Source of the DNA: Escherichia coli
GTDB taxonomy: Bacteria > Pseudomonadota > Gammaproteobacteria > Enterobacterales > Enterobacteriaceae
Reading direction: 5' to 3' (one strand)
NCBI RefSeq assembly: GCF_003334335.1
Contig: NZ_QOWQ01000003.1
DNA length: 64,000 nt
Part shown: piece by piece, positions 44,375 to 61,385 of the stretch
Numbering within the stretch: position 1 is the first letter of the stretch
How the letters are laid out: each line of letters begins with the position of its first letter
Notes under the pieces: model-generated
The model's database searches: none
What the model saw: the letters and a program-made list of their open reading frames with translations, nothing else
Told to the model about the DNA's origin: nothing
Program-made: the position numbers and the translations under genes

Positions 44375-44381
44375 TTTCTCA

Positions 44382-44406
44382 TCAGGCGGCTCTGCCGCCT
44401 GATTGT
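44382..44406 (+). terminator. Hairpin after ydiK
   Basis: TCAGGCGGC-TCTG-CCGCCTGA just past ydiK stop. Confidence 0.5.
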
Positions 44407-44559
44407 TAACCACCGCTAATTGATATTTGCTTGCTCTTCCCCATATTTTCCTGCTTACCGCCATTCAGCTGGTAGTACCTGTCGCAAATTCTTTACAGTT
44501 TTTAAACTAATGAGACGAATCTGATCGACGCAAAAAGTCCGTATGCCTACTATTAGCTC

Positions 44560-44665
44560 ACGGTTATAAATCAACATATTGATTTATAAGCATGGAAATC
44601 CCCTGAGTGAAACAACGAATTGCTGTGTGTAGTCTTTGCCCATCTCCCACGATGGGCTTTTTTTT
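44560..44665 (+). ncRNA. rprA: Small regulatory RNA RprA (activator of rpoS translation)
   Basis: Sequence ACGGTTATAAATCAACATATTGATTTATAAGCATGG...GCCCATCTCCCACGATGGGCTTTTTTT recognised as RprA, with intrinsic terminator. Confidence 0.85.
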
Positions 44666-44802
44666 AACATTTTTCCGCTTCGCTACCTCGCCCCTCACTC
44701 TTTCCAATAATGTTGCACAAGATACTGTGACTCTCTTCAAGCCGTCAGCAGGCTGATAATGTTATTTATATTTTATTGTTTATTTCATGCAGCCATTACA
44801 CG

Positions 44803-45159
44803 ATGAACGCTTATGAACTCCAGGCACTCCGCCATATTTTTGCCATGACTATTGATGAATGCGCGACCTGGATTGCCCAGACCGGTGACAGTGAAAGCTG
44901 GCGTCAGTGGGAAAATGGCAAGTGTGCCATTCCTGATCGTGTAGTCGAGCAACTGTTGGCTATGCGTCAGCAAAGAAAAAAACATCTTCATGCCATCATA
45001 GAGAAAATAAATAACCGCATCGGCAACAACACCATGCGTTTTTTCCCCGACTTAACCGCATTTCAACGAGTCTACCCTGATGGCAATTTTATTGACTGGA
45101 AGATCTATCAATCGGTAGCTGCTGAATTATATGCACACGATCTGGAGCGGCTTTGTTAA
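44803..45159 (+). CDS. ydiL: YdiL, unknown function
   Basis: Start at MNAYELQ (118 aa); ORF track starts 9 codons earlier. Confidence 0.8.
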   Translation: MNAYELQALRHIFAMTIDECATWIAQTGDSESWRQWENGKCAIPDRVVEQLLAMRQQRKKHLHAIIEKINNRIGNNTMRFFPDLTAFQRVYPDGNFIDWKIYQSVAAELYAHDLERLC

Positions 45160-45258
45160 TTTTTCCACAGAAAGGAATTGTCGTTGTTACAACAATAATG
45201 AACGGATGCTGACACAACATCGCTTCACTTTTTAAAGCACCTTTGCTAAGTAGAACCT

Positions 45259-46473
45259 ATGAAAAATCCCTATTTCCCTACCGCACTTGGGTTGTATTTT
45301 AATTACCTGGTGCATGGTATGGGCGTCCTTTTGATGAGCCTGAATATGGCCTCGCTGGAGACACTTTGGCAGACTAATGCCGCGGGTGTCTCGATAGTTA
45401 TCTCATCGCTGGGCATTGGTCGATTAAGTGTCTTGCTTTTTGCAGGATTATTATCCGATCGCTTTGGTCGCCGCCCTTTTATCATGCTCGGGATGTGCTG
45501 CTATATGGCCTTCTTTTTTGGCATCCTGCAGACCAATAACATCATTATCGCTTATGTTTTTGGCTTTCTGGCGGGAATGGCAAACAGTTTTCTCGATGCA
45601 GGCACTTATCCCAGTTTGATGGAAGCTTTTCCACGCTCACCTGGGACAGCCAATATTTTAATTAAAGCATTTGTTTCCAGCGGACAATTTTTATTACCGC
45701 TAATCATTAGCCTGTTAGTGTGGGCTGAACTGTGGTTCGGTTGGTCCTTTATGATTGCTGCAGGCATTATGTTTATTAACGCTCTGTTTTTATACCGTTG
45801 TACGTTCCCACCCCATCCGGGTCGTCGCTTACCTGTCATAAAGAAAACCACCAGCTCTACGGAACATCGCTGTTCAATTATCGATTTAGCCAGTTATACC
45901 TTATATGGCTATATCTCAATGGCAACGTTTTATCTGGTTAGCCAGTGGCTGGCACAGTACGGACAATTTGTTGCAGGCATGTCATACACTATGTCGATCA
46001 AACTACTCAGTATCTACACCGTGGGTTCGCTGCTTTGTGTATTTATTACCGCTCCACTCATTCGTAATACCGTTCGCCCAACAACATTACTGATGCTGTA
46101 CACCTTTATCTCATTTATTGCTCTGTTTACCGTCTGCCTGCATCCCACATTTTATGTGGTGATAATATTTGCTTTTGTCATTGGTTTTACCTCTGCTGGA
46201 GGTGTTGTGCAAATTGGCCTGACGTTAATGGCTGAACGTTTCCCTTACGCTAAAGGTAAAGCTACAGGGATCTATTACAGTGCGGGCAGTATTGCGACCT
46301 TTACTATTCCGTTGATTACGGCTCATCTGTCCCAAAGAAGTATTGCCGATATTATGTGGTTCGATACCGCCATCGCTGCCATCGGTTTTTTACTGGCACT
46401 GTTTATCGGCTTACGCAGCCGCAAAAAAACGCGGCATCACTCGCTAAAGGAAAATGTCGCTCCGGGTGGGTAA
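45259..46473 (+). CDS. ydiM: MFS transporter YdiM
   Basis: ORF track 404 aa; 12-TM profile. Confidence 0.87.
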   Translation: MKNPYFPTALGLYFNYLVHGMGVLLMSLNMASLETLWQTNAAGVSIVISSLGIGRLSVLLFAGLLSDRFGRRPFIMLGMCCYMAFFFGILQTNNIIIAYVFGFLAGMANSFLDAGTYPSLMEAFPRSPGTANILIKAFVSSGQFLLPLIISLLVWAELWFGWSFMIAAGIMFINALFLYRCTFPPHPGRRLPVIKKTTSSTEHRCSIIDLASYTLYGYISMATFYLVSQWLAQYGQFVAGMSYTMSIKLLSIYTVGSLLCVFITAPLIRNTVRPTTLLMLYTFISFIALFTVCLHPTFYVVIIFAFVIGFTSAGGVVQIGLTLMAERFPYAKGKATGIYYSAGSIATFTIPLITAHLSQRSIADIMWFDTAIAAIGFLLALFIGLRSRKKTRHHSLKENVAPGG

Positions 46474-46699
46474 TGCAATATTCTTTTCAGGTCATGCAAG
46501 ATCTTACGGATAAATAACTCTTTCTGCGCTAACTAAGGAAAATCGCGATCAAAAACAAACTATGACATGCAATATTCCTGGAAACATAAACTTTATGCCA
46601 TGTACCCAGGGAAAATCATCTTCAGTATAGTAATTATGTAAACCGTCGGAGAACAATACGTACGGTAACGAAATTATCTTTCAGCAAGGAGCTGTGAAA

Positions 46700-47965
46700 A
46701 TGTCTCAAAATAAGGCTTTCAGCACGCCATTTATCCTGGCTGTTCTTTGTATTTACTTCAGCTACTTCCTGCACGGCATTAGTGTTATTACGCTTGCCCA
46801 AAATATGTCATCTCTGGCGGAAAAGTTTTCCACTGACAACGCGGGCATTGCCTACTTAATTTCCGGTATCGGTTTGGGGCGATTGATCAGTATTTTATTC
46901 TTCGGTGTGATCTCCGATAAGTTTGGTCGTCGGGCGGTGATATTAATGGCAGTAATAATGTATCTGCTATTCTTCTTTGGTATTCCCGCTTGCCCGAATT
47001 TAACTCTCGCCTACGGTCTGGCAGTGTGCGTAGGTATCGCTAACTCAGCGCTGGATACGGGTGGCTACCCCGCGCTCATGGAATGCTTTCCGAAAGCCTC
47101 TGGTTCGGCGGTCATACTGGTTAAAGCGATGGTGTCATTTGGGCAAATGTTCTACCCAATGCTGGTGAGCTATATGTTGCTCAATAATATCTGGTACGGC
47201 TATGGGCTGATTATTCCGGGTATTCTATTTGTACTGATCACGCTGATGCTGTTGAAAAGCAAATTCCCCAGCCAGTTGGTGGACGCCAGCGTAACTAATG
47301 AATTACCGCAAATGAACAGCAAACCGTTAGTCTGGCTGGAAGGTGTTTCATCGGTACTGTTCGGTGTAGCCGCATTCTCGACCTTTTATGTGATTGTGGT
47401 GTGGATGCCCAAATATGCGATGGCTTTTGCTGGTATGTCAGAAGCTGAGGCATTAAAAACCATCTCTTATTACAGTATGGGCTCGTTGGTCTGTGTCTTT
47501 ATTTTTGCCGCACTACTGAAAAAAATGGTCCGGCCCATCTGGGCTAATGTATTTAACTCTGCACTGGCAACAATAACAGCAGCCATTATCTACCTGTACC
47601 CTTCTCCACTGGTGTGCAATGCCGGAGCCTTTGTTATCGGTTTCTCAGCAGCTGGCGGCATTTTACAGCTCGGCGTTTCGGTCATGTCAGAGTTTTTTCC
47701 CAAAAGCAAAGCCAAAGTCACCAGTATTTATATGATGATGGGTGGACTGGCTAACTTTGTTATTCCACTGATTACCGGTTATCTGTCGAACATCGGCCTG
47801 CAATATATCATTGTTCTCGATTTTACTTTCGCGCTGCTGGCCCTGATTACCGCAATTATTGTTTTTATCCGCTATTACCGCGTTTTCATTATTCCTGAAA
47901 ATGATGTGCGGTTTGGCGAGCGTAAATTTTGCACCCGGTTAAACACAATTAAGCATAGAGGTTAA
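46700..47965 (+). CDS. ydiN: MFS transporter YdiN
   Basis: Start at MSQNK with SD AAGGAG; 421 aa; paralogous to ydiM. Confidence 0.87.
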
Positions 47966-47976
47966 AGGAGTTAATT

Positions 47977-48843
47977 ATGGATGTTACCGCAAAATACGAA
48001 TTGATTGGGTTGATGGCCTATCCTATCCGCCACAGTTTATCGCCCGAAATGCAGAATAAAGCCTTAGAAAAAGCGGGATTGCCATTTACCTATATGGCCT
48101 TCGAAGTGGATAACGATAGCTTTCCTGGAGCAATTGAAGGATTAAAAGCCCTCAAAATGCGCGGAACTGGTGTATCGATGCCGAACAAACAACTGGCGTG
48201 TGAATATGTTGATGAATTAACACCAGCTGCCAAACTGGTGGGGGCCATCAACACCATCGTTAATGATGATGGCTATCTGCGTGGCTATAACACCGACGGC
48301 ACGGGCCATATTCGCGCCATTAAAGAGAGCGGTTTTGATATCAAAGGCAAAACGATGGTGCTGTTAGGGGCCGGTGGTGCCTCAACGGCAATTGGCGCGC
48401 AGGGGGCAATTGAAGGTTTAAAAGAAATTAAACTCTTTAACCGTCGGGATGAGTTCTTCGATAAAGCCCTCGCCTTCGCGCAGCGGGTTAATGAAAACAC
48501 CGATTGTGTCGTCACGGTCACCGATCTCGCCGATCAGCAAGCCTTTGCTGAAGCCCTGGCTTCCGCCGACATTTTAACCAATGGCACAAAAGTGGGTATG
48601 AAACCCCTTGAGAATGAATCATTGGTTAATGATATCAGTCTGTTACATCCGGGACTTCTGGTCACTGAATGCGTGTATAACCCGCATATGACGAAGTTAT
48701 TGCAGCAGGCGCAACAAGCTGGTTGCAAAACGATTGATGGATACGGCATGTTGTTGTGGCAAGGGGCTGAACAGTTCACATTATGGACTGGCAAAGATTT
48801 CCCTCTGGAATATGTTAAACAGGTCATGGGGTTCGGTGCCTGA
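47977..48843 (+). CDS. ydiB: Quinate/shikimate 5-dehydrogenase YdiB
   Basis: ORF track 288 aa; Rossmann GAGGA motif; precedes aroD. Confidence 0.9.
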
Positions 48844-48873
48844 CAGGCTGACCGCGTGCAGAAAGGGTAAAAA

Positions 48874-49632
48874 ATGAAAACCGTAACTGTAAAAGATCTC
48901 GTCATTGGTACGGGCGCACCTAAAATCATCGTCTCGCTGATGGCGAAAGATATCGCCAGCGTGAAATCCGAAGCTCTCGCCTATCGTGAAGCGGACTTTG
49001 ATATTCTGGAATGGCGTGTGGACCACTATGCCGACCTCTCCAATGTGGAGTCTGTCATGGCGGCAGCAAAAATTCTCCGTGAGACCATGCCAGAAAAACC
49101 GCTGCTGTTTACCTTCCGCAGTGCCAAAGAAGGCGGCGAGCAGGCGATTTCCACCGAGGCTTATATTGCACTCAATCGTGCAGCCATCGACAGCGGCCTG
49201 GTTGATATGATCGATCTGGAGTTATTTACCGGTGATGATCAGGTTAAAGAAACCGTCGCCTACGCCCACGCGCATGATGTGAAAGTAGTCATGTCCAACC
49301 ATGACTTCCATAAAACGCCGGAAGCCGAAGAAATCATTGCCCGTCTGCGCAAAATGCAATCCTTCGACGCCGATATTCCTAAGATTGCGCTGATGCCGCA
49401 AAGTACCAGCGATGTGCTGACGTTGCTTGCCGCGACCCTGGAGATGCAGGAGCAGTATGCCGATCGTCCAATTATCACGATGTCGATGGCAAAAACTGGC
49501 GTAATTTCTCGTCTGGCTGGTGAAGTATTTGGCTCGGCGGCAACTTTTGGTGCGGTAAAAAAAGCGTCTGCGCCAGGGCAAATCTCGGTAAATGATTTGC
49601 GCACGGTATTAACTATTTTACACCAGGCATAA
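48874..49632 (+). CDS. aroD: 3-dehydroquinate dehydratase type I
   Basis: ORF track 252 aa; recognised AroD sequence. Confidence 0.93.
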
Positions 49633-49774
49633 GCAATAATATTTCGGCGGGAACACCCTCCCCGCCGAACTAAAAAATATATTCAATCGTATTTAATAAA
49701 AATATTTCGTGAGTCTCTGTGCGCTAATTCTCCATTTGGCGTAGGGAAAATCACATCTGAATCAGGAATTAACA

Positions 49775-51370
49775 ATGAAACCTGTAAAACCACCTCGTAT
49801 TAATGGACGAGTGCCGGTCCTGTCGGCACAGGAAGCGGTGAATTATATTCCCGACGAAGCAACACTTTGTGTGTTAGGCGCTGGCGGCGGTATTCTGGAA
49901 GCCACCACGTTAATTACTGCTCTTGCTGATAAATATAAACAGACTCAAACACCACGTAATTTATCGATTATTAGTCCAACAGGGCTTGGCGATCGCGCCG
50001 ACCGTGGTATTAGTCCTCTGGCGCAAGAAGGTCTGGTGAAATGGGCATTATGTGGTCACTGGGGACAATCGCCGCGTATTTCTGAACTCGCAGAACAAAA
50101 TAAAATTATTGCTTATAACTACCCACAAGGTGTACTTACACAAACCTTACGCGCCGCCGCAGCCCACCAGCCTGGTATTATTAGTGATATTGGCATCGGG
50201 ACATTTGTCGATCCACGCCAGCAAGGCGGCAAACTGAATGAAGTCACTAAAGAAGACCTGATTAAACTGGTCGAGTTTGATAACAAAGAATATCTCTATT
50301 ACAAAGCGATTGCGCCAGATATTGCCTTCATTCGCGCTACCACCTGCGACAGTGAAGGCTACGCCACTTTTGAAGATGAGGTGATGTATCTCGACGCATT
50401 GGTTATTGCCCAGGCGGTGCACAATAACGGCGGTATTGTGATGATGCAGGTGCAGAAAATGGTTAAGAAAGCCACGCTGCATCCTAAATCTGTCCGTATT
50501 CCGGGTTATCTGGTGGATATTGTGGTGGTCGATCCGGATCAAACCCAACTGTATGGCGGTGCACCGGTTAACCGCTTTATTTCTGGTGACTTCACCCTTG
50601 ATGACAGTACCAAACTTAGCCTGCCCCTAAACCAACGTAAATTAGTTGCGCGGCGCGCATTATTCGAAATGCGTAAAGGCGCGGTGGGGAATGTCGGCGT
50701 CGGTATTGCTGACGGCATTGGCCTGGTCGCCCGAGAAGAAGGTTGTGCTGATGACTTTATTCTGACGGTAGAAACAGGTCCGATTGGCGGAATTACTTCA
50801 CAGGGGATCGCCTTTGGCGCGAACGTGAATACCCGTGCCATTCTGGATATGACGTCCCAGTTTGATTTTTATCACGGTGGCGGTCTGGATGTTTGTTATT
50901 TGAGTTTTGCTGAAGTCGACCAGCACGGTAACGTCGGCGTGCATAAATTCAATGGTAAAATCATGGGCACCGGTGGATTTATTGATATCAGTGCCACTTC
51001 GAAGAAAATCATTTTCTGCGGCACATTAACTGCGGGCAGTTTAAAAACAGAAATTACCGACGGCAAATTAAATATCGTCCAGGAAGGACGGGTGAAGAAA
51101 TTTATTCGGGAACTACCGGAAATTACTTTCAGCGGAAAAATCGCTCTCGAGCGAGGGCTGGATGTTCGTTATATCACTGAGCGCGCAGTATTCACGCTGA
51201 AAGAAGACGGCCTGCATTTAATCGAAATCGCCCCTGGCGTCGATTTACAAAAAGATATTCTCGACAAAATGGATTTCACCCCAGTGATTTCGCCAGAACT
51301 CAAACTGATGGACGAAAGATTATTTATCGATGCGGCGATGGGTTTTGTCCTGCCTGAAGCGGCTCATTAA
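49775..51370 (+). CDS. ydiF: Acyl-CoA:acetate CoA-transferase family protein YdiF
   Basis: ORF track 531 aa; fused alpha/beta CoA-transferase domains. Confidence 0.88.
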   Translation: MKPVKPPRINGRVPVLSAQEAVNYIPDEATLCVLGAGGGILEATTLITALADKYKQTQTPRNLSIISPTGLGDRADRGISPLAQEGLVKWALCGHWGQSPRISELAEQNKIIAYNYPQGVLTQTLRAAAAHQPGIISDIGIGTFVDPRQQGGKLNEVTKEDLIKLVEFDNKEYLYYKAIAPDIAFIRATTCDSEGYATFEDEVMYLDALVIAQAVHNNGGIVMMQVQKMVKKATLHPKSVRIPGYLVDIVVVDPDQTQLYGGAPVNRFISGDFTLDDSTKLSLPLNQRKLVARRALFEMRKGAVGNVGVGIADGIGLVAREEGCADDFILTVETGPIGGITSQGIAFGANVNTRAILDMTSQFDFYHGGGLDVCYLSFAEVDQHGNVGVHKFNGKIMGTGGFIDISATSKKIIFCGTLTAGSLKTEITDGKLNIVQEGRVKKFIRELPEITFSGKIALERGLDVRYITERAVFTLKEDGLHLIEIAPGVDLQKDILDKMDFTPVISPELKLMDERLFIDAAMGFVLPEAAH

Positions 51371-51383
51371 CAGGAGTATAATG

Positions 51384-52535
51384 ATGGATTTTTCTTTAAA
51401 TGAAGAACAAGAACTGCTGCTGGCCAGTATTCGCGAACTGATTACGACTAACTTTCCGGAAGAGTATTTCCGCACCTGCGATCAAAACGGGACATATCCG
51501 CGTGAGTTTATGCGGGCGCTGGCGGATAACGGTATTTCCATGCTTGGCGTGCCGGAAGAATTTGGTGGTATCCCTGCGGATTACGTCACCCAAATGCTGG
51601 CGCTGATGGAAGTGTCAAAATGCGGTGCTCCGGCATTTTTAATTACCAACGGTCAATGTATTCACAGTATGCGCCGTTTCGGTTCTGCAGAGCAGCTACG
51701 TAAAACGGCAGAGAGCACCCTGGAAACGGGTGATCCCGCCTATGCCCTGGCGTTGACGGAACCAGGTGCTGGCTCAGATAACAACAGTGCCACTACCACT
51801 TACACGCGTAAAAACGGCAAGGTCTACATCAACGGACAAAAAACCTTTATTACCGGTGCGAAAGAGTACCCGTATATGCTGGTGCTGGCGCGCGATCCGC
51901 AACCGAAAGATCCCAAAAAAGCCTTCACCCTGTGGTGGGTCGACTCCAGTAAGCCCGGCATTAAGATTAACCCGCTGCATAAAATCGGCTGGCATATGCT
52001 CAGCACCTGCGAAGTCTATCTCGACAACGTGGAGGTTGAAGAGAGCGACATGGTGGGCGAAGAAGGAATGGGTTTCCTCAATGTGATGTACAACTTTGAG
52101 ATGGAGCGCCTGATCAACGCCGCGCGCAGCACCGGCTTTGCCGAATGCGCCTTTGAAGATGCCGCCCGCTATGCCAACCAACGTATCGCTTTTGGTAAGC
52201 CCATTGGTCATAACCAGATGATCCAGGAAAAACTGGCGCTGATGGCGATTAAGATCGACAACATGCGCAACATGGTGCTGAAAGTGGCATGGCAAGCCGA
52301 TCAGCATCAGTCACTGCGCACCAGCGCGGCGCTGGCAAAACTGTACTGTGCACGTACCGCAATGGAAGTCATTGATGATGCGATTCAAATCGTGGGCGGT
52401 CTGGGCTATACCGATGAGGCGCGCGTCTCCCGCTTCTGGCGTGATGTCCGTTGTGAACGTATCGGCGGCGGTACAGACGAAATTATGATTTACGTAGCAG
52501 GTCGGCAGATCCTGAAAGACTATCAGAACAAATAA
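51384..52535 (+). CDS. ydiO: Acyl-CoA dehydrogenase family protein YdiO
   Basis: Start at MDFSLNEEQ (383 aa); ORF track extends 18 codons upstream. Confidence 0.88.
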   Translation: MDFSLNEEQELLLASIRELITTNFPEEYFRTCDQNGTYPREFMRALADNGISMLGVPEEFGGIPADYVTQMLALMEVSKCGAPAFLITNGQCIHSMRRFGSAEQLRKTAESTLETGDPAYALALTEPGAGSDNNSATTTYTRKNGKVYINGQKTFITGAKEYPYMLVLARDPQPKDPKKAFTLWWVDSSKPGIKINPLHKIGWHMLSTCEVYLDNVEVEESDMVGEEGMGFLNVMYNFEMERLINAARSTGFAECAFEDAARYANQRIAFGKPIGHNQMIQEKLALMAIKIDNMRNMVLKVAWQADQHQSLRTSAALAKLYCARTAMEVIDDAIQIVGGLGYTDEARVSRFWRDVRCERIGGGTDEIMIYVAGRQILKDYQNK

Positions 52536-52577: not shown

Positions 52578-53489
52578 TTATCCAACAAGACTTACCGGTT
52601 GAGGAAATTCAGATAGGATTTCTTGTTCCGCAAAACAGTTTTTAAATTGTCTACGGTAATCGCTGGGCGAACAACCGACATGGCGCAAAAACAGTTTGGC
52701 AAAGTGATCGACATTTTCATAACCCACACGCCAGGAGATCTCTGCCTGTGATAATTCAGTATTAGTGAGTGACCATTTTGCTTCCGTCATACGCCGTTGA
52801 ATAACATAGTTAATAGGGGAAATACGATACTCTTTGGTAAATTCATGGCAAATATAACTGACGCTGGCACGAAATTTTTTCGATAACTGTTCTAAAGTGA
52901 TTTTTTCGCGATAATTATTATTCAGATAGAAAAGAATATCTTTTATCAGAACATCTTTTTTAATATACCCCTGCTCCGAACGATAAGCATTTTTAAAATT
53001 TTCGTAGTAAAGAATGGCTAACGTATAGGCAAATGCATCCCATAACGAAGATGTTTGGCTATTTTTACTTTGCGGCAAAATCACACTTAGCTCATTAAAT
53101 AAGGTTTTTATGACTTCTTTTCCCTGCCCCGCGGCAATTACCGGACAAGAATGCGGTTGCAGTAGCTGATTTTCCTCAGCCCCCTGAAACTGAAAGCCGT
53201 ACAGCGCACAGGTACACGTCGTTGCCGGATCGTTAACGTCAGAGGCCACCGCATGCAGCCTGCCGCGTTCTATCACCACAATGTCATCCGCATGTGCGAC
53301 ATATAACGAAGAATCGATGGTAAACCTTGCAACCCCTTTCTTGACGTAAATCAACTCGGTTTCATTGTCATGAACGTGATGTCCGGACTCCCATTTTGGA
53401 TCATCGCTAAATGCAAAACGTGAAAGCCGTGGCGTTTTACCGGCGACAAACAGCGTTTCACTGGCGTTATCAAAACAGCGTTGATACAT
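52578..53489 (-). CDS. ydiP: AraC-family transcriptional regulator YdiP
   Basis: ORF track 303 aa; C-terminal AraC-type HTH. Confidence 0.87.
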   Translation of the reverse strand: MYQRCFDNASETLFVAGKTPRLSRFAFSDDPKWESGHHVHDNETELIYVKKGVARFTIDSSLYVAHADDIVVIERGRLHAVASDVNDPATTCTCALYGFQFQGAEENQLLQPHSCPVIAAGQGKEVIKTLFNELSVILPQSKNSQTSSLWDAFAYTLAILYYENFKNAYRSEQGYIKKDVLIKDILFYLNNNYREKITLEQLSKKFRASVSYICHEFTKEYRISPINYVIQRRMTEAKWSLTNTELSQAEISWRVGYENVDHFAKLFLRHVGCSPSDYRRQFKNCFAEQEILSEFPQPVSLVG

Positions 53490-53804: not shown

Positions 53805-54569
53805 ATGAAAATAATAACCTGCTTTAAGCTGGTGCCTGAAGAACAGGACATTGTTGTCACTCCAGAATACACCCTGAATTTCGACAATGCCGACGCCAAA
53901 ATCAGCCAGTTCGATCTCAATGCCATTGAAGCTGCAAGCCAGCTCGCAACAGATGACGATGAGATAGCCGCGCTGACCGTTGGCGGCTCATTGTTGCAGA
54001 ACTCGAAAGTGCGCAAAGACGTGCTATCCCGCGGGCCGCACAGCCTGTATTTGGTGCAGGATGCGCAACTTGAACATGCACTGCCTCTCGATACCGCAAA
54101 AGCGCTGGCGGCAGCAATTGAAAAGATCGGCTTCGATTTACTGATCTTTGGTGAAGGTTCCGGCGACCTTTATGCCCAGCAGGTTGGCTTGCTGGTCGGA
54201 GAAATTCTGCAACTTCCGGTGATTAATGCAGTGAGTGCTATTCAGCGTCAGGGCAATACACTGGTGATTGAACGCACGCTTGAAGATGATGTTGAAGTTA
54301 TTGAACTCTCTGTTCCAGCCGTGCTCTGCGTCACCTCCGATATTAACGTGCCACGCATTCCTTCGATGAAAGCCATTCTCGGCGCGGGTAAAAAACCGGT
54401 AAATCAGTGGCAGGCAAGTGATATTGACTGGAGCCAGAGCGCGCCACTTGCTGAACTGGTCGGCATTCGCGTACCGCCGCAAACAGAACGTAAGCACATC
54501 ATTATCGATAACGATTCGCCGGAGGCCATTGCCGAGCTGGCGGAACATCTGAAGAAAGCCCTGAACTGA
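53805..54569 (+). CDS. ydiQ: Electron transfer flavoprotein beta-subunit homologue YdiQ (FixA-like)
   Basis: Start at MKIITCFK with SD AGGAGA (254 aa); ORF track extends 33 codons upstream. Confidence 0.88.
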   Translation: MKIITCFKLVPEEQDIVVTPEYTLNFDNADAKISQFDLNAIEAASQLATDDDEIAALTVGGSLLQNSKVRKDVLSRGPHSLYLVQDAQLEHALPLDTAKALAAAIEKIGFDLLIFGEGSGDLYAQQVGLLVGEILQLPVINAVSAIQRQGNTLVIERTLEDDVEVIELSVPAVLCVTSDINVPRIPSMKAILGAGKKPVNQWQASDIDWSQSAPLAELVGIRVPPQTERKHIIIDNDSPEAIAELAEHLKKALN

Positions 54570-54588
54570 AGCCTACGGAGAAGAAACG

Positions 54589-55527
54589 ATGAGTCAATTA
54601 AACAGCGTCTGGGTCTTTAGCGATAATCCTGAACGTTATGCTGAACTGTTTGGCGGCGCTCAGCAATGGGGCCAACAGGTGTATGCCATTGTACAAAATA
54701 CCGACCAGGCGCAGGCAGTTATGCCTTATGGTCCAAAATGTCTTTATGTTCTTGCGCAAAACGACGCGCTGCAACGCACTGAAAATTACGCCGAAAGCAT
54801 TGCTGCCCTGCTGAAAGATAAACACCCCGCTATGTTGCTGTTGGCCGCGACGAAACGTGGTAAAGCGCTGGCAGCACGGTTAAGTGTGCAACTGAATGCG
54901 GCGCTGGTGAACGATGCCACGGCGGTGGATATTGTCGATGGTCACATTTGCGCCGAACACCGGATGTATGGCGGGTTAGCGTTCGCTCAGGAAAAGATCA
55001 ACAGCCCGCTGGCGATCATTACCCTTGCACCCGGTGTTCAGGAACCGTGCACCAGTGATACCTCTCATCAGTGCCCGACAGAAACGGTACCTTATGTTGC
55101 TCCGCGTCATGAAATTCTCTGTCGCGAACGCCGTGCGAAAGCCGCAAGCAGCGTGGACCTGAGCAAAGCAAAACGTGTGGTTGGCGTCGGTCGTGGACTG
55201 GCGGCGCAGGATGACCTAAAAATGGTCCACGAACTGGCGGCGGTGCTGAATGCTGAAGTCGGCTGTTCACGTCCAATTGCCGAAGGCGAGAACTGGATGG
55301 AGCGTGAACGTTATATCGGTGTCTCCGGCGTGTTGCTGAAATCCGATCTCTACCTGACGCTGGGGATCTCCGGGCAGATCCAGCATATGGTTGGCGGCAA
55401 CGGCGCAAAAGTGATTGTCGCCATCAATAAAGATAAAAATGCGCCAATCTTCAACTATGCCGACTACGGTCTGGTGGGCGATATCTACAAAGTCGTCCCT
55501 GCCCTGATTAGCCAGTTGAGCCGCTAA
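54589..55527 (+). CDS. ydiR: Electron transfer flavoprotein alpha-subunit homologue YdiR (FixB-like)
   Basis: ORF track 312 aa. Confidence 0.88.
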   Translation: MSQLNSVWVFSDNPERYAELFGGAQQWGQQVYAIVQNTDQAQAVMPYGPKCLYVLAQNDALQRTENYAESIAALLKDKHPAMLLLAATKRGKALAARLSVQLNAALVNDATAVDIVDGHICAEHRMYGGLAFAQEKINSPLAIITLAPGVQEPCTSDTSHQCPTETVPYVAPRHEILCRERRAKAASSVDLSKAKRVVGVGRGLAAQDDLKMVHELAAVLNAEVGCSRPIAEGENWMERERYIGVSGVLLKSDLYLTLGISGQIQHMVGGNGAKVIVAINKDKNAPIFNYADYGLVGDIYKVVPALISQLSR

Positions 55528-55582
55528 TTCCCCTTTCAACCACATCTCCCGCTGTAAACGCAGCGGGAAGGGAGCATAACGC

Positions 55583-56872
55583 ATGTCGGATGACAAATTT
55601 GATGCCATTGTGGTCGGTGCGGGCGTTGCTGGTAGCGTTGCCGCACTGGTCATGGCACGAGCCGGGCTGGATGTCCTGGTGATAGAACGCGGCGACAGTG
55701 CCGGATGTAAAAACATGACCGGCGGGCGTCTTTATGCCCACACACTTGAAGCAATCATTCCAGGCTTTGCAGTATCAGCGCCGGTAGAACGCAAGGTCAC
55801 ACGCGAGAAAATCTCCTTCTTAACCGAAGAAAGCGCCGTTACCCTCGATTTTCACCGCGAGCAGCCAGATGTTCCGCAACACGCATCTTATACCGTATTG
55901 CGTAATCGTCTGGACCCGTGGTTGATGGAACAAGCCGAGCAGGCGGGCGCGCAGTTTATCCCAGGCGTTCGCGTCGACGCGCTGGTTCGTGAAGGAAACA
56001 AGGTCACTGGCGTGCAGGCTGGGGATGATATTCTCGAAGCGAATGTGGTGATTCTGGCTGATGGCGTTAACTCGATGCTTGGCCGCTCGCTGGGAATGGT
56101 TCCCGCTTCCGATCCGCATCATTACGCTGTTGGTGTTAAAGAGGTTATTGGCCTCACACCAGAACAGATCAACGATCGCTTTAATATTACGGGCGAGGAA
56201 GGTGCCGCCTGGCTGTTTGCCGGTTCCCCTTCTGACGGCCTGATGGGCGGGGGATTTCTCTATACCAACAAGGATTCCATATCCTTGGGGCTGGTTTGTG
56301 GATTGGGTGATATCGCCCATGCGCAAAAAAGCGTGCCGCAAATGCTGGAAGATTTTAAACAACACCCCGCCATTCGCCCGCTGATTAGCGGCGGCAAACT
56401 GCTTGAATATTCCGCGCATATGGTGCCGGAAGGCGGTCTGGCAATGGTGCCGCAACTGGTTAACGAGGGCGTGATGATCGTTGGTGACGCCGCAGGCTTC
56501 TGCCTGAATTTGGGTTTTACGGTCCGCGGCATGGATTTAGCCATTGCATCGGCTCAGGCTGCCGCCACAACGGTGATCGCCGCCAAAGAACGCGCGGATT
56601 TCTCCGCCAGCAGTCTGGCGCAATACAAACGTGAGCTGGAACAAAGCTGCGTCATGCGTGATATGCAGCATTTTCGCAAGATCCCGGCGCTGATGGAAAA
56701 CCCGCGCCTGTTTAGCCAATACCCACGAATGGTAGCCGACATCATGAACGAGATGTTCACCATCGACGGCAAACCAAACCAGCCGGTACGAAAAATGATC
56801 ATGGGACATGCGAAGAAAATTGGGCTGATCAACTTGCTGAAAGATGGCATTAAGGGAGCAACCGCGCTATGA
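55583..56872 (+). CDS. ydiS: ETF-quinone oxidoreductase-like flavoprotein YdiS (FixC-like)
   Basis: ORF track 429 aa; N-terminal FAD motif IVVGAGVAGS. Confidence 0.88.
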   Translation: MSDDKFDAIVVGAGVAGSVAALVMARAGLDVLVIERGDSAGCKNMTGGRLYAHTLEAIIPGFAVSAPVERKVTREKISFLTEESAVTLDFHREQPDVPQHASYTVLRNRLDPWLMEQAEQAGAQFIPGVRVDALVREGNKVTGVQAGDDILEANVVILADGVNSMLGRSLGMVPASDPHHYAVGVKEVIGLTPEQINDRFNITGEEGAAWLFAGSPSDGLMGGGFLYTNKDSISLGLVCGLGDIAHAQKSVPQMLEDFKQHPAIRPLISGGKLLEYSAHMVPEGGLAMVPQLVNEGVMIVGDAAGFCLNLGFTVRGMDLAIASAQAAATTVIAAKERADFSASSLAQYKRELEQSCVMRDMQHFRKIPALMENPRLFSQYPRMVADIMNEMFTIDGKPNQPVRKMIMGHAKKIGLINLLKDGIKGATAL

Positions 56873-57162
56873 GCCAGAACGCTACGGTTAACGTCGACAT
56901 CAAATTAGGCGTCAATAAATTCCATGTTGATGAGGGCCACCCGCATATCATTCTGGCGGAAAATCCCGATATCAATGAATTCCATAAATTAATGAAAGCC
57001 TGCCCTGCCGGACTTTATAAGCAGGATGACGCAGGAAACATTCATTTTGATTCCGCCGGTTGTCTGGAGTGCGGCACCTGTCGGGTGCTGTGCGGTAACA
57101 CTATTCTCGAACAGTGGCAATATCCCGCAGGCACCTTCGGTATTGATTTTCGCTACGGCTAA
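56869..57162 (+). CDS. ydiT: Ferredoxin-like protein YdiT (FixX-like)
   Basis: ORF track 97 aa; Cys motif CxxCxxC; 4-bp overlap with ydiS. Confidence 0.87.
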   Translation: MSQNATVNVDIKLGVNKFHVDEGHPHIILAENPDINEFHKLMKACPAGLYKQDDAGNIHFDSAGCLECGTCRVLCGNTILEQWQYPAGTFGIDFRYG

Positions 57163-57218: not shown

Positions 57219-58865
57219 ATGAAAGTGACATTAACGTTTAACGAACAACGTCGTGCGGCGTATCGTCAGCAAGGGTTATGGGGCGATGCTTCGCTGGCCG
57301 ATTACTGGCAGCAGACCGCTCGTGCGATGCCAGACAAAATTGCCGTGGTCGATAATCATGGTGCATCGTACACCTATAGCGCGCTCGATCACGCCGCGAG
57401 CTGTCTGGCAAACTGGATGTTAGCGAAGGGTATTGAATCAGGCGATCGCATCGCATTTCAACTGCCTGGCTGGTGTGAATTTACCGTTATCTATCTTGCC
57501 TGCCTGAAAATCGGTGCAGTTTCCGTGCCGCTGTTGCCTTCCTGGCGGGAAGCAGAACTGGTGTGGGTGCTCAATAAGTGTCAGGCAAAAATGTTCTTTG
57601 CACCGACGTTGTTTAAACAAACGCGTCCGGTAGATTTAATCCTGCCGCTGCAAAATCAGCTTCCACAACTACAACAAATTGTCGGCGTGGACAAACTGGC
57701 TCCCGCCACCTCTTCCCTCTCATTAAGTCAGATTATCGCCGACAATACCTCACTGACCACGGCGATAACGACCCACGGCGATGAATTAGCTGCGGTGCTG
57801 TTTACCTCCGGAACCGAGGGTCTGCCAAAGGGCGTGATGCTAACGCATAACAATATTCTCGCCAGTGAGCGGGCTTATTGCGCGCGACTGAATCTGACCT
57901 GGCAGGATGTCTTTATGATGCCTGCGCCACTTGGTCACGCAACGGGCTTTCTGCATGGCGTAACGGCACCATTCTTAATTGGCGCTCGCAGCGTGTTGTT
58001 AGATATTTTCACTCCTGATGCGTGTCTCGCGCTGCTTGAGCAGCAGCGTTGCACCTGTATGCTCGGCGCAACGCCGTTTGTCTATGATCTTTTGAATGTA
58101 CTAGAGAAACAACCCGCGGACCTTTCAGCGCTGCGTTTCTTTCTTTGCGGCGGAACCACAATCCCCAAAAAAGTGGCGCGTGAATGCCAGCAGCGCGGCA
58201 TTAAATTATTAAGTGTTTATGGTTCCACAGAAAGTTCGCCGCATGCGGTGGTGAATCTCGATGATCCTTTGTCGCGCTTTATGCACACCGATGGTTACGC
58301 TGCCGCAGGTGTAGAGATTAAAGTGGTCGATGACGCACGCAAGACCTTACCGCCAGGTTGCGAAGGTGAAGAAGCCTCGCGTGGCCCCAATGTGTTTATG
58401 GGGTATTTTGATGAACCTGAATTAACCGCCCGTGCCCTGGATGAAGAAGGCTGGTATTACAGCGGCGATCTCTGCCGTATGGATGAGGCTGGCTATATAA
58501 AAATTACCGGACGCAAAAAAGATATTATTGTCCGCGGCGGCGAAAATATTAGCAGCCGTGAAGTGGAAGATATTTTATTGCAGCATCCTAAAATTCACGA
58601 TGCCTGTGTGGTTGCAATGTCCGATGAACGTTTAGGTGAACGATCATGCGCTTATGTCGTGCTGAAAGCGCCGCATCATTCATTATCGCTGGAAGAGGTA
58701 GTGGCTTTTTTTAGCCGTAAACGGGTCGCAAAATATAAATATCCTGAACATATCGTGGTAATCGAAAAACTACCGCGAACTACCTCAGGTAAAATACAAA
58801 AGTTTTTGTTAAGAAAAGATATTATGCGGCGTTTAACGCAGGATGTCTGTGAAGAGATTGAATAA
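57219..58865 (+). CDS. fadK: Short/medium-chain acyl-CoA synthetase FadK (YdiD)
   Basis: Start at MKVTLTFNEQ (SD GAGAG); AMP-binding motif TSGTEGLPKG; ORF track extends 18 codons upstream. Confidence 0.88.
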   Translation: MKVTLTFNEQRRAAYRQQGLWGDASLADYWQQTARAMPDKIAVVDNHGASYTYSALDHAASCLANWMLAKGIESGDRIAFQLPGWCEFTVIYLACLKIGAVSVPLLPSWREAELVWVLNKCQAKMFFAPTLFKQTRPVDLILPLQNQLPQLQQIVGVDKLAPATSSLSLSQIIADNTSLTTAITTHGDELAAVLFTSGTEGLPKGVMLTHNNILASERAYCARLNLTWQDVFMMPAPLGHATGFLHGVTAPFLIGARSVLLDIFTPDACLALLEQQRCTCMLGATPFVYDLLNVLEKQPADLSALRFFLCGGTTIPKKVARECQQRGIKLLSVYGSTESSPHAVVNLDDPLSRFMHTDGYAAAGVEIKVVDDARKTLPPGCEGEEASRGPNVFMGYFDEPELTARALDEEGWYYSGDLCRMDEAGYIKITGRKKDIIVRGGENISSREVEDILLQHPKIHDACVVAMSDERLGERSCAYVVLKAPHHSLSLEEVVAFFSRKRVAKYKYPEHIVVIEKLPRTTSGKIQKFLLRKDIMRRLTQDVCEEIE

Positions 58866-61300: not shown

Positions 61301-61385
61301 CGAACAATCCTTTTGTGATAAATGAACGGTTTGAGAAACACATTTCTGCGCATTTATCTTTGCATATTTAACCGGATGAAAAAAA

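What the first reader, a model, noticed from the sequence alone, without database searches (positions are those of the whole stretch)
45259..49632. Paralogous MFS pair ydiM/ydiN linked to quinate/shikimate dehydrogenase and dehydroquinase
Two similar MFS transporters precede ydiB and aroD with short gaps (ydiN stop to ydiB start is 11 bp). The arrangement looks like a hydroaromatic (quinate/shikimate) uptake and conversion module grafted onto the biosynthetic aroD.
Basis: inference. Interest (0 to 1): 0.25.

Follow-up and report, generated by a model that had tools for sequence, protein, structure and literature searches.

The report
Quinate/shikimate uptake genes of E. coli
This is the annotated E. 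coli K-12 ydiM-ydiN-ydiB-aroD region: two anciently duplicated membrane transporters beside the enzymes that interconvert quinate, dehydroquinate, dehydroshikimate and shikimate, a real and conserved link that others have already proposed in print and that probably reaches into the downstream CoA-enzyme genes.

Summary
The window is E. coli K-12 MG1655, and 45259-49632 is exactly ydiM, ydiN, ydiB and aroD. YdiM and YdiN are 36% identical (E=8e-86). The ydiN-ydiB gap is 11 bp and the ydiB-aroD gap is 30 bp. The ydiM-ydiN gap, however, is 226 bp and holds a conserved operator and -10 element, so ydiM is a separate unit.

The idea of a hydroaromatic uptake and conversion module is supported. In 73 loci seeded on the transporter (31 genera, 3 phyla), all have a YdiB-type dehydrogenase within 3 kb, and 68 also have a dehydroquinase. 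The idea is already published (Johansson & Liden 2006; Hu 2009; Khalfaoui-Hassani 2023). The substrate has still not been tested directly.

"Grafted onto biosynthetic aroD" is not supported. aroD belongs to the conserved transporter/dehydrogenase/dehydroquinase trio, also in Firmicutes.

New here: relatives of downstream ydiF, ydiO, ydiQRST and fadK stay with this trio in at least seven different gene orders. That suggests a cai/fix-like reductive pathway for quinate or shikimate. This rests on gene context only.

Verdict: a known locus with low novelty as stated, plus one testable extension.

The parts
44803..45159 (+). ydiL, a small Aca2/YdiL-type helix-turn-helix protein 99 bp upstream of ydiM. 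It is a possible regulator or partner of ydiM.
   Evidence: RefSeq annotation. Pfam PF08965 matches full length at E=3e-61. It sits upstream of ydiM in nearly all Enterobacterales loci that hold ydiM.
45259..46473 (+). ydiM, an MFS transporter (404 aa). It is the E. coli counterpart of the transporter that sits between ydiB and aroD in Firmicute operons.
   Evidence: It is 36% identical to YdiN. Firmicute module transporters are 46-58% identical to YdiM but only 36-42% to YdiN, and the NJ tree groups them with YdiM.
46473..46483 (+). First copy of the 11-mer ATGCAATATTC, overlapping the ydiM stop codon. A half copy ATGCAAGAT lies at 46493.
   Evidence: It is conserved at this place in Escherichia, Citrobacter, Kosakonia and Intestinirhabdus (alignment A2).
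46566..46604 (+). Conserved operator-like block upstream of ydiN. It contains the second ATGCAATATTC copy.
   Evidence: It is conserved in every Enterobacterales sequence aligned, with or without the neighbouring LysR gene (A2 and A3). In Dickeya it reads TGCAA-N6-TTGCA. Function is inferred.
46626..46631 (+). Predicted -10 hexamer TATAGT of a ydiN promoter with a poor -35, which suggests dependence on an activator.
   Evidence: T, A, A and T of the hexamer are invariant columns in A2 and A3. The consensus scan did not call it because the -35 is weak. This is inference only, with no transcription start data.
46700..47965 (+). ydiN, an MFS transporter (421 aa) and first gene of the tight ydiN-ydiB-aroD unit.
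   Evidence: Orthologues (64-97% identity) lie directly upstream of ydiB in all Enterobacterales and Sutterella loci.
47977..48843 (+). ydiB, NAD(P)-dependent quinate/shikimate dehydrogenase.
   Evidence: NCBIfam NF009390 scores 670 bits against a cut-off of 349. AGGAG lies 7 nt before the ATG, inside the 11-bp gap after ydiN.
48874..49632 (+). aroD, type I 3-dehydroquinate dehydratase.
   Evidence: TIGR01093 scores 292 bits against a cut-off of 139. It starts 30 bp after ydiB with no terminator-like site between them.
49643..49669 (.). G+C-rich hairpin just after the aroD stop codon. Its T-run lies on the minus-strand side, so it is a doubtful terminator for aroD.
49775..51370 (+). ydiF, a family I CoA-transferase. 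It is an inferred downstream member of the hydroaromatic system.
   Evidence: It follows aroD in all Enterobacterales and Sutterella loci long enough to show it. Of 7 homologues (60-70% identity) looked up in other bacteria, 5 sit beside a dehydroquinase. The Megasphaera locus L066 shows the same.
51384..52535 (+). ydiO, an acyl-CoA dehydrogenase/enoyl-CoA reductase and CaiA paralogue. Inferred member.
   Evidence: NF008997 scores 782 bits; the second-best hit is CaiA at 451 bits. Homologues at 66-83% identity share an operon with a type I dehydroquinase in L079, L082, L087 and L089.
52578..53489 (-). ydiP, an AraC-family regulator between ydiO and ydiQ.
   Evidence: It is conserved at this place in Enterobacterales. 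AraC-type genes also flank the transporters in L079, L082 and L087.
53805..57162 (+). ydiQ, ydiR, ydiS and ydiT: electron-transfer flavoprotein beta and alpha subunits plus FixC- and FixX-like proteins (paralogues of fixABCX). Inferred members.
   Evidence: NCBIfam. They stay with the trio in Sutterella (inverted), L068, L079, L087 and L089.
57219..58865 (+). fadK (ydiD), an acyl-CoA ligase. Inferred member in a priming-ligase role like CaiC.
   Evidence: NF004758 scores 1087 bits; the second-best hit is cyclohexanecarboxylate-CoA ligase at 417 bits. Orthologues lie beside the trio in Sutterella (59-62%) and Sporolactobacillus L068 (53%). AMP-ligases are also present in L087 and L089.

Best explanation
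ydiN-ydiB-aroD is a transport-plus-conversion unit for hydroaromatic acids.

Shown: the three genes are packed at 11 and 30 bp with their own ribosome-binding sites and no terminator-like site between them. YdiB is a quinate/shikimate dehydrogenase and AroD a type I dehydroquinase. A transporter of this family sits next to a YdiB-type dehydrogenase and a dehydroquinase across three phyla.

Inferred: YdiN, and its older paralogue YdiM, are proton-coupled MFS permeases for quinate, shikimate and/or 3-dehydroshikimate. Imported quinate is oxidised by YdiB to 3-dehydroquinate, and AroD dehydrates that to 3-dehydroshikimate. The product then either joins chorismate synthesis (salvage) or passes to the CoA-dependent enzymes encoded just downstream.

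Expression is inferred to start at an activator-dependent promoter in the 226-bp gap, with a conserved operator at 46566-46604 and a -10 element at 46626-46631. ydiM, with ydiL, is a separate unit. Because the same AroD is E. coli's only dehydroquinase (established knowledge), it must also be expressed independently for biosynthesis.
For: Anatomy.

Enzyme identities are above curated cut-offs.

Cross-phylum linkage: 73 of 73 loci have a YdiB-type gene, and 68 of 73 also have a dehydroquinase, within 3 kb of the transporter, across 31 genera. The usual Firmicute order is ydiB-MFS-aroD. Telmatospirillum has a type II dehydroquinase instead, a substitution that argues for a need for the activity itself. 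The linked dehydrogenases are 46-55% identical to YdiB, whereas AroE-like copies in the same loci are 27-30%.

A regulatory block upstream of ydiN is conserved.

Literature: ydiN, ydiB and aroD are co-induced under carbon limitation, and YdiN has been proposed as a shikimate or by-product transporter (PMC4585142). ydiN deletion gave about 1.3-fold more shikimate in flasks (PMC8788726). About 75% of YdiM/YdiN homologues lie next to a shikimate-pathway gene (PMC10588857). ydiN and ydiB deletions were reported as aromatic auxotrophs (PMC2672614), which I read as polarity on aroD and therefore as evidence of co-transcription.
Against: I found no direct transport assay for YdiM or YdiN in the papers I could reach.

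Neither protein reaches any curated family cut-off. The best named hit, the aromatic acid:H+ symporter family, scores 39-41 bits against a cut-off of 418. Neither resembles the known shikimate permease ShiA beyond the generic MFS loop motif.

The ydiN deletion effect is small and vanished in a fermenter.

The reported YdiM deletion phenotype is loss of bo3 oxidase activity and slow 64Cu uptake, not a hydroaromatic defect.

E. coli is not known to grow on quinate or shikimate (my knowledge).

Enterobacteriaceae lack the LysR gene that accompanies the operon elsewhere, so the E. coli copy may be poorly inducible.
Confidence: 0.6

Rival explanations
1. The module is only the front end of a larger, cai/fix-like reductive pathway. 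After quinate is converted to dehydroquinate and then dehydroshikimate (or shikimate), the alpha,beta-unsaturated acid is activated to a CoA thioester by YdiF, with FadK as the priming ligase. Its ring double bond is then reduced by YdiO using electrons delivered through YdiQR and YdiST. Hydroaromatics would thus serve as an anaerobic electron sink or be routed towards cyclohexanecarboxylates. This extends the best explanation rather than excluding it.
For: The block ydiL to fadK is kept in all Enterobacterales loci. The same orthologues stay together in different orders in: Sutterella, where fadK-ydiTSRQ is inverted; L079, ordered MFS-AraC-MFS-ydiF-ydiO-etfBA-ydiB-aroD-fixCX; L082; L087; L089, where the dehydroquinase lies between etfA and fixC; and Sporolactobacillus L068. 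In Negativicutes, Sporolactobacillus vineae and Liquorilactobacillus an OYE/BaiCD-type enoate reductase sits with the trio instead. That is a second kind of C=C reductase at the same place. YdiO, YdiQRST and FadK have CaiA, FixABCX and cyclohexanecarboxylate-CoA ligase as their next-best families. Gut flora convert shikimate to cyclohexanecarboxylate (Brewster 1978, as cited in PMC7558350).
Against: The evidence is gene context only. YdiO, YdiQRST and FadK have been linked to anaerobic fatty-acid use and are used as a crotonyl-CoA reductase in engineered reverse beta-oxidation (my knowledge). Many of the proteobacterial examples could descend from transfers of a single block. One 74%-identical YdiO homologue stands alone. 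A 62% homologue in Desulfovibrio belongs to a system without a dehydroquinase. Most Lactobacillaceae loci have the trio without any such reductase.
Confidence: 0.35
2. YdiN (and YdiM) act mainly as exporters that release quinate, dehydroshikimate or other by-products when the pathway runs backwards or overflows. On this view they do not serve as uptake systems.
For: Johansson & Liden proposed YdiN as an exporter of aromatic by-products, as summarised in PMC4585142. TCDB lists YdiM as a putative isoprenol exporter (cited in PMC10588857).
Against: The same review also shows YdiN as a back-importer of shikimate. ydiN deletion raised the external shikimate titre, which fits re-uptake better than export. 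In Firmicutes the trio sits with substrate-responsive LysR regulators and extra dehydrogenase and transporter copies, which is typical of utilisation loci.
Confidence: 0.15
3. YdiM is a copper (metal) importer needed to make active cytochrome bo3 oxidase, and its position next to shikimate genes is incidental or indirect.
For: In PMC10588857, ydiM deletion lowered bo3 oxidase activity and slowed whole-cell 64Cu uptake, and Met-rich motifs were noted in the transmembrane helices.
Against: The authors themselves report that the family is tied to shikimate-pathway genes and call the link to copper unclear. The paper describes complementation only with the cyo operon plasmid, not with ydiM, and never mentions polarity. 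An indirect effect is therefore open, for example through aroD expression, chorismate and ubiquinone supply (my inference). My survey finds the YdiM clade inside ydiB-MFS-aroD operons of Lactobacillaceae and Megasphaera. To my knowledge many of these lack heme-copper oxidases.
Confidence: 0.08
4. The transporters carry unrelated substrates, and the neighbourhood is inherited synteny without functional meaning.
For: There is no biochemical substrate assignment and no curated family match. Within Enterobacterales the conservation could be plain vertical synteny.
Against: The association survives changes of gene order, of phylum and of dehydroquinase type. Plain synteny does not explain that.
Confidence: 0.05

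Closest known systems
Firmicute ydiB-MFS-aroD operons with a divergent LysR gene (Lactobacillaceae, Sporolactobacillus, Megasphaera and other Negativicutes; loci L046-L075)
   Same: They hold the same three protein families: YdiB-type dehydrogenase at 46-55% identity, YdiM-clade transporter at 46-58% and type I dehydroquinase at 39-51%. A LysR orthologue (42-46% identical to the Megasphaera one) also sits upstream of ydiN in Yersinia, Dickeya, Brenneria and Serratia.
   Different: In these operons the transporter sits between the two enzymes. E. coli has two transporter genes upstream, lacks the LysR gene, and has ydiL and ydiP instead. Many Firmicute loci carry extra transporter or dehydrogenase copies or an OYE-type reductase.
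Aerobic quinate/shikimate utilisation clusters (Acinetobacter qui-pca, Corynebacterium qsuABCD, Aspergillus and Neurospora qut/qa). Described from my own knowledge.
   Same: They share the logic of a permease plus quinate/shikimate dehydrogenase plus dehydroquinase encoded together and induced by hydroaromatics.
   Different: Those clusters include a dehydroshikimate dehydratase that leads to protocatechuate and ring cleavage, and they generally use a type II dehydroquinase. No such dehydratase is annotated among the neighbouring genes here, and the dehydroquinase is type I. E. coli's copy is also its only biosynthetic dehydroquinase.
ShiA, the characterised shikimate:H+ symporter of E. coli (b1981)
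   Same: It is an MFS permease of the same organism acting on the same class of compound. Both shiA and ydiN are deleted together in shikimate production strains.
   Different: BLASTP finds only the generic cytoplasmic-loop motif, with E=0.003 against YdiN and 0.024 against YdiM. shiA lies elsewhere on the chromosome and is not linked to pathway enzymes.
caiTABCDE / fixABCX carnitine system of E. coli. Roles are from my own knowledge; sequence relations were tested here.
   Same: YdiO has CaiA as its next-best family. YdiQ, YdiR, YdiS and YdiT have FixA, FixB, FixC and FixX. FadK hits the CaiC family more weakly. The parts list is the same: transporter, CoA-transferase, dehydratase, enoyl-CoA reductase, priming ligase and a dedicated electron-input module.
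   Different: YdiF is a family I CoA-transferase (PF01144), not a CaiB-type family III enzyme. The transporters are MFS, not BCCT. The dehydratase is a dehydroquinase acting on the free acid. The substrate is unproven.
Aromatic acid:H+ symporter family (TC 2.A.1.15; NCBIfam TIGR00895), under which TCDB lists YdiM and YdiN according to PMC10588857
   Same: It is the best or second-best named NCBIfam hit for both proteins, and its members carry ring carboxylic acids.
   Different: The scores of 39 and 41 bits are far below the curated cut-off of 418.55, so membership is not established by that model.

Membership tests
Major facilitator superfamily | Match to the MFS_1 profile over a protein of about 400 aa, with the conserved cytoplasmic-loop motif. 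| tested here: met
   The 99%-identical cluster representative P0001 and all listed homologues carry PF07690. The G-R-L...D-[KR]-F-G-R-R motif is visible in both proteins. Both are annotated as MFS transporters.
Aromatic acid:H+ symporter family (TIGR00895 / TC 2.A.1.15) | Whole-protein score above the curated cut-off of 418.55 bits. | tested here: not met
   YdiM scores 39 bits and YdiN 41.4 bits.
ShiA-type shikimate permease (metabolite:H+ symporter family) | Full-length sequence similarity to ShiA. | tested here: not met
   BLASTP finds only short fragments, with best E=0.003 for YdiN and 0.024 for YdiM.
Quinate/shikimate dehydrogenase YdiB (NF009390) | Score above the curated cut-off, and distinct from AroE. 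| tested here: met
   It scores 669.9 bits against 349. AroE models score lower and below their own cut-offs.
Type I 3-dehydroquinate dehydratase (TIGR01093) | Score above the curated cut-off. | tested here: met
   It scores 292.2 bits against 139.3.
Single operon ydiN-ydiB-aroD | Co-transcription of the three genes. | tested here: inconclusive
   Gaps are 11 and 30 bp, with no terminator-like site in them, and the order is conserved. Co-induction and deletion phenotypes come from the literature only. No transcript data could be examined.
Hydroaromatic uptake/conversion module | The transporter carries quinate, shikimate or dehydroshikimate. | not testable with these tools
   Only indirect evidence exists: 73 of 73 loci are linked to a YdiB-type gene, and ydiN deletion gives a 1.3-fold titre effect.
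Hydroaromatic uptake/conversion module | Conserved neighbourhood of transporter, quinate/shikimate dehydrogenase and dehydroquinase beyond close relatives. | tested here: met
   68 of 73 loci, and 29 of 31 genera in three phyla, show it. Type II replaces type I dehydroquinase in Telmatospirillum.
Aerobic qui/qsu/qut-type catabolic cluster | A dehydroshikimate dehydratase leading to protocatechuate is encoded with the cluster. | tested here: not met
   No such gene is among the annotated neighbours from ydiH to selO. No dedicated sequence search was run.
cai/fix-like CoA-dependent reductive system (extended reading) | A CaiA-like reductase, FixABCX-like electron module and acyl-CoA ligase are encoded together. 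| tested here: met
   The next-best families are CaiA (451 bits) for YdiO, FixA/B/C/X for YdiQRST and an acyl-CoA ligase for FadK. They are contiguous in the window.
cai/fix-like CoA-dependent reductive system (extended reading) | A CaiB-type (family III) CoA-transferase. | tested here: not met
   YdiF and its homologues carry PF01144, family I. The Desulfovibrio system L088, which does have a family III enzyme, lacks the dehydroquinase.
cai/fix-like CoA-dependent reductive system (extended reading) | Enzymatic activity on hydroaromatic CoA thioesters. | not testable with these tools
   The evidence is gene context only.

The most novel reading that the evidence does not exclude
The whole 14-kb block ydiL-ydiM-ydiN-ydiB-aroD-ydiF-ydiO-ydiP-ydiQRST-fadK may be one system for reductive use of plant hydroaromatic acids under anoxia. 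Its logic would parallel the carnitine cai/fix system. Quinate or shikimate is imported by YdiN/YdiM. YdiB and AroD convert it to the ring enoate (dehydroshikimate or shikimate). YdiF, primed by FadK, makes the CoA thioester. YdiO then reduces the ring double bond with electrons from YdiQR and YdiST. In Negativicutes and some Bacilli an OYE-type enoate reductase would do the reduction directly. This would assign a physiological role to about ten poorly understood E. coli genes. It would also name candidate genes for the long-known conversion of dietary quinate and shikimate to reduced cyclohexane carboxylates by gut and lactic acid bacteria.
Probability: 0.35. Interest if true: 0.7.

Novelty: already known. 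Interest (0 to 1): 0.3.

Why it matters
As stated, the finding restates a published, still unproven hypothesis about annotated E. coli K-12 genes, so it changes little by itself.

It matters in two ways. First, YdiM and YdiN remain without a demonstrated substrate, even though ydiN is routinely deleted in shikimate production strains. The conserved operator and promoter, and the lost LysR partner, give concrete handles for testing induction.

Second, the comparative data suggest that aroD's neighbours on both sides form one system. If so, E. coli's only dehydroquinase sits inside a hydroaromatic utilisation cluster rather than the reverse. The y-genes ydiF, ydiO and ydiQRST, now treated as generic beta-oxidation parts in metabolic engineering, would then have a different native substrate. 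Quinate and shikimate are abundant in plant food, for example as chlorogenic acids. The genes for their reduction by gut bacteria are, as far as I could find, unassigned.

Tried and rejected
- Rfam scan of 44300-50000 for a leader or riboswitch in the gaps found only the RprA sRNA upstream of ydiL.
- The consensus promoter/terminator scan found fewer promoter-like sites than in shuffles (7 against 9.8) and nothing in the ydiN-ydiB or ydiB-aroD gaps. It missed the conserved -10 element because the -35 is poor.
- I searched for a pseudogene remnant of the Yersinia/Dickeya-type LysR gene in the E. coli ydiM-ydiN gap and in the whole window, and found none.
- Relation to ShiA was rejected.
- No solved-structure relative of YdiN exists at E<=0.001.
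- The TGCAA-type operator motif of Enterobacterales is not shared by the LysR-operon intergenic regions of Firmicutes.
- 'Recent tandem duplication' of ydiM/ydiN was rejected, because the two fall in different deep clades.
- 'Module grafted onto aroD' was rejected, because aroD is part of the conserved trio.
- Literature searches: ydiO+ydiF+shikimate gave zero papers. The searches for dihydroshikimate, for quinate, shikimate, Lactobacillus and electron acceptor, and for quinate, CoA transferase, dehydroquinate dehydratase, anaerobic and gene cluster gave nothing relevant. The library holds open-access papers only, so absence there is weak evidence.
- I did not run structure prediction. The tool returns no coordinates, so it could not show which residues line the transport cavity.

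Full report
**What is there**

The stretch 45000-50000 is 100% identical to E. coli K-12 MG1655. It is present in all 5426 complete E. coli genomes searched, and 5317 cover at least 80% of it. RefSeq annotation of the identical sequence and the ORF list give the following, all on the + strand:
- ydiM 45259-46473
- ydiN 46700-47965
- ydiB 47977-48843
- aroD 48874-49632

YdiM and YdiN are true paralogues, 36% identical over 385 residues with E=8e-86. The ydiN-ydiB gap is 11 bp and contains AGGAG. The ydiB-aroD gap is 30 bp. YdiB and AroD pass the curated NCBIfam cut-offs for quinate/shikimate dehydrogenase (670 against 349 bits) and type I dehydroquinase (292 against 139 bits). The two transporters reach no curated family cut-off. 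Their best named hit, the aromatic acid:H+ symporter family, scores about 40 bits against 418.

**One correction to the observation**

ydiM and ydiN are 226 bp apart, which is not a short gap. This gap carries the 11-mer ATGCAATATTC twice, at 46473 and 46567. Alignments of the region upstream of ydiN show a block at 46566-46604 and a TAnAnT hexamer (TATAGT, 46626-46631). Both are conserved in every species aligned: Escherichia, Citrobacter, Kosakonia, Intestinirhabdus, Serratia, Yersinia, Dickeya, Brenneria and Prodigiosinella.

In the Yersinia, Dickeya, Brenneria, Serratia/Symbiopectobacterium and Prodigiosinella loci the same gap is 1.5-2 kb. There it holds a LysR-family gene on the opposite strand. 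Escherichia, Citrobacter and Kosakonia lack that gene, and no remnant is detectable in E. coli.

I infer that ydiN-ydiB-aroD has its own activator-dependent promoter, and that ydiM (with ydiL, 99 bp upstream) is a separate unit. The consensus scan found no terminator-like site in the two short gaps. No known RNA element lies in the region apart from RprA upstream of ydiL.

**Is the link to hydroaromatic metabolism more than local synteny?**

I built an alignment of YdiN, YdiM and homologues down to 41% identity. I used it to fetch loci from one genome per species. Selection was by transporter peptide patterns only, so it is blind to the neighbouring genes. I then located relatives of the E. 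coli proteins in the flanks.
- Of 73 usable loci from 31 genera, all 73 have a YdiB-type gene (at least 40% identity) within 3 kb of a transporter copy.
- 68 of the 73 loci, covering 29 of the 31 genera, also have a dehydroquinase within 3 kb.
- Enterobacterales keep ydiL-ydiM-ydiN-ydiB-aroD-ydiF.
- Sutterella keeps ydiN-ydiB-aroD-ydiF.
- Most Lactobacillaceae, Sporolactobacillus and Megasphaera-type Negativicutes have ydiB-MFS-aroD with a divergent LysR gene.
- Telmatospirillum pairs the transporter with ydiB and a type II dehydroquinase.

The linked dehydrogenases are 46-55% identical to YdiB. AroE-like genes in the same loci are 27-30% identical. The association therefore survives changes of phylum, gene order and enzyme type, which inherited synteny does not explain.

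A neighbour-joining tree puts E. coli YdiM with the Firmicute module transporters. YdiN falls in a separate clade with Sutterella and Telmatospirillum. The pair is thus an old duplication, and YdiM, not YdiN, is the counterpart of the transporter inside the Firmicute operons.

**What is already published**

The idea is not new.
- Johansson and Liden (2006) found ydiN, ydiB and aroD co-induced under carbon limitation and proposed YdiN as a shikimate or by-product transporter. This is as summarised in PMC4585142 and PMC8788726.
- Hu et al. 2009 grouped YdiL, YdiM and YdiN with aro genes from operon rearrangements. They reported aromatic auxotrophy of ydiN and ydiB deletions (PMC2672614). I read that as polarity on aroD.
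- Khalfaoui-Hassani et al. 2023 described the paralogue pair. They found about 75% of homologues next to a shikimate-pathway gene, and an aroD-ydiM-ydiB arrangement in Klebsiella. They also reported that ydiM deletion lowers bo3 oxidase activity and 64Cu uptake (PMC10588857).
- That last paper reports complementation only with the cyo operon and does not discuss polarity. An indirect effect through aroD and quinone supply therefore remains possible (my inference).
- ydiN deletion raised shikimate titre about 1.3-fold in flasks but not in a fermenter.

I found no transport assay. The transporters are unrelated to the characterised shikimate permease ShiA beyond the generic MFS loop. They have no solved-structure relative at E<=0.001.

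**The 'grafted onto biosynthetic aroD' part**

The comparative data argue against it. aroD is one of the three conserved members of the module in Firmicutes as well as in Proteobacteria. Megasphaera paucivorans carries the trio with its type I enzyme. Beside it are a type II dehydroquinase, aroK and an aroE-type gene. The simpler description is that E. coli's single dehydroquinase (established knowledge) lies inside an ancient hydroaromatic module. Which came first cannot be decided from these data.

In all Enterobacterales loci aroD is followed by ydiF, ydiO, ydiP (opposite strand), ydiQRST and, in E. coli, fadK.

The same orthologues stay with the trio in other orders:
- Sutterella has fadK-ydiTSRQ inverted and divergent from ydiN-ydiB-aroD-ydiF-ydiO.
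- Sporolactobacillus sp. L068 has, in order: FixB, FixC, FixX, a LysR gene on the opposite strand, an acyl-CoA dehydrogenase, ydiB, aroD, two transporters and a FadK equivalog, at 53-59% identity for YdiS, YdiT and FadK.

I then seeded on the other genes instead.
- YdiF: of seven YdiF homologues (60-70% identity) looked up outside Enterobacterales, five sit beside a dehydroquinase.
  - L079 has MFS-AraC-MFS-ydiF-ydiO-etfB-etfA-ydiB-aroD-fixC-fixX on one strand.
  - L082 has the same set with different downstream genes: a PanE-like reductase, a MaoC dehydratase and a glyoxalase-fold protein in place of fixC-fixX.
  - In both, identities to E. coli are 82-83% for YdiO, 76-77% for YdiB and 68-69% for AroD.
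  - Three Firmicute contigs carry YdiF, a MaoC dehydratase, a PanE-like reductase, a small protein of unknown function (glyoxalase-fold in L085) and a type II dehydroquinase. The Megasphaera locus carries the same set.
- YdiO: four homologues were looked up.
  - L089 (77%) has the dehydroquinase between etfA and fixC.
  - L087 (66%) has the full set.
  - A 74% homologue stands alone.
  - A 62% Desulfovibrio homologue belongs to a CaiB-type system without a dehydroquinase.
- In nine Negativicutes loci, Sporolactobacillus vineae and Liquorilactobacillus, an OYE/BaiCD-type Fe-S flavoenzyme sits in or next to the operon. It belongs to the enoate or dienoyl-CoA reductase family.
- For E. coli YdiO, YdiQRST and FadK the next-best families are CaiA, FixABCX and cyclohexanecarboxylate-CoA ligase.

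**How it most likely works**

Shown: the gene anatomy, the two enzyme identities and the conserved neighbourhoods.

Inferred with moderate confidence (about 0.6):
- YdiN and YdiM move quinate, shikimate and/or dehydroshikimate across the membrane.
- YdiB and AroD convert imported quinate through dehydroquinate to dehydroshikimate.
- The product can enter chorismate synthesis.

Inferred with lower confidence (about 0.35):
- Dehydroshikimate and shikimate carry a ring double bond conjugated to the carboxylate.
- The downstream genes therefore form a cai/fix-like route. YdiF, primed by FadK, makes the CoA thioester. YdiO reduces it with electrons supplied through YdiQR and YdiST.
- The OYE-type enzyme would do the equivalent step in Negativicutes.

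This would fit old reports that gut flora turn shikimate into cyclohexanecarboxylate (Brewster 1978, as cited in PMC7558350). From my memory, lactobacilli also reduce quinate and shikimate.

Against it:
- The evidence is gene context only.
- These E. coli genes have been tied to anaerobic fatty-acid use and are used as a crotonyl-CoA reductase in engineering (my knowledge).
- Most Lactobacillaceae loci carry no such reductase beside the trio.
- No paper in the searchable library joins ydiO, ydiF and shikimate, or describes an anaerobic CoA-dependent quinate cluster. That library is open-access only.

**Verdict**

The 'graft' idea is not supported, and the ydiM-ydiN gap is regulatory, not short. 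As stated the finding is ordinary: a known locus with a known hypothesis. The added value is threefold: the cross-phylum count, the conserved operator and lost LysR partner, and the evidence that the module continues into ydiF-ydiO-ydiQRST-fadK.

Noticed in passing
window 44560-44667 (+): The RprA small RNA lies between ydiK and ydiL (Rfam RF00034, 118.5 bits against a gathering score of 70). It is followed by a terminator-like hairpin at 44638-44657.
   Followed up: no
window 44803-45159 (+): YdiL is a full-length Aca2/YdiL-family helix-turn-helix protein (PF08965, E=3e-61). It is kept upstream of ydiM in nearly all Enterobacterales loci that hold ydiM. The family name comes from anti-CRISPR-associated regulators, and its role here is unknown.
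   Followed up: partly
window 46473-46483, 46567-46577, 46626-46631: The 11-mer ATGCAATATTC occurs twice in the ydiM-ydiN gap, with a half copy at 46493. Downstream lies a conserved block and an invariant TAnAnT hexamer. Together these look like the operator and -10 element of an activator-dependent ydiN promoter.
   Followed up: partly
L021-L024, L026-L030, L032, L038, L045 (about 6000-7400, minus strand): A LysR-family gene, 42-46% identical to the one divergent from the Megasphaera operon, lies between ydiM and ydiN in Yersinia, Dickeya, Brenneria, Serratia/Symbiopectobacterium and Prodigiosinella. It is absent from Escherichia, Citrobacter and Kosakonia, and no remnant is left in E. coli.
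   Followed up: yes
window 49643-49669: A strong hairpin right after the aroD stop codon has its T-run on the minus-strand side, although no minus-strand gene ends there. It may be a poor or two-way terminator, or a repeat element.
   Followed up: no
L066:10964-14938 (-), L080:10001-14011, L083:10001-14082, L085:10001-14923, L082:16817-18745: A recurrent cassette in anaerobic Firmicutes holds a YdiF-type CoA-transferase, a MaoC dehydratase, a PanE/ApbA-like reductase, a small protein of about 130 aa (weak glyoxalase-fold hit in L082 and L085) and a type II dehydroquinase. L082 holds only the reductase, dehydratase and small-protein part. I know of no described pathway that matches it.
   Followed up: partly
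L057, L059-L062, L064-L066, L069, L071, L074 (upstream of ydiB); L060, L063 (downstream): An OYE/BaiCD-like Fe-S flavoenzyme of about 680 aa is encoded directly with the ydiB-MFS-aroD operon in Negativicutes, Sporolactobacillus vineae and Liquorilactobacillus. Dehydroshikimate is a cyclohexenone and so a plausible substrate.
   Followed up: partly
L084:2155-7990: In Hominifimenecus, three carboxylesterase/BD-FAE-type esterase genes and another esterase precede the YdiF-MaoC-PanE-like genes. They could release quinate from chlorogenic-acid-type esters.
   Followed up: no
window about 58922-63669: According to the annotation of the identical K-12 sequence, ppsA, ppsR and the DAHP synthase gene aroH follow fadK. 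The region therefore holds three shikimate-pathway genes (ydiB, aroD, aroH) plus the PEP-forming enzyme. The window coordinates are derived from record coordinates.
   Followed up: no
hits H1-H3; proteins P0007 and P0175: A few E. coli strains carry IS1 or ISVsa5 insertions inside this region. Single metagenome gene calls fuse YdiN with YdiB domains (P0007, 668 aa) or a shikimate-dehydrogenase N-domain with a CoA-transferase (P0175). These are probably read-through or assembly artefacts.
   Followed up: no
L051, L049, L058: Some Lactobacillaceae carry two or three transporter copies and two YdiB-type genes in one locus. The tree shows two distinct Lactobacillaceae transporter clades, which suggests separate substrates such as quinate and shikimate.
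   Followed up: partly
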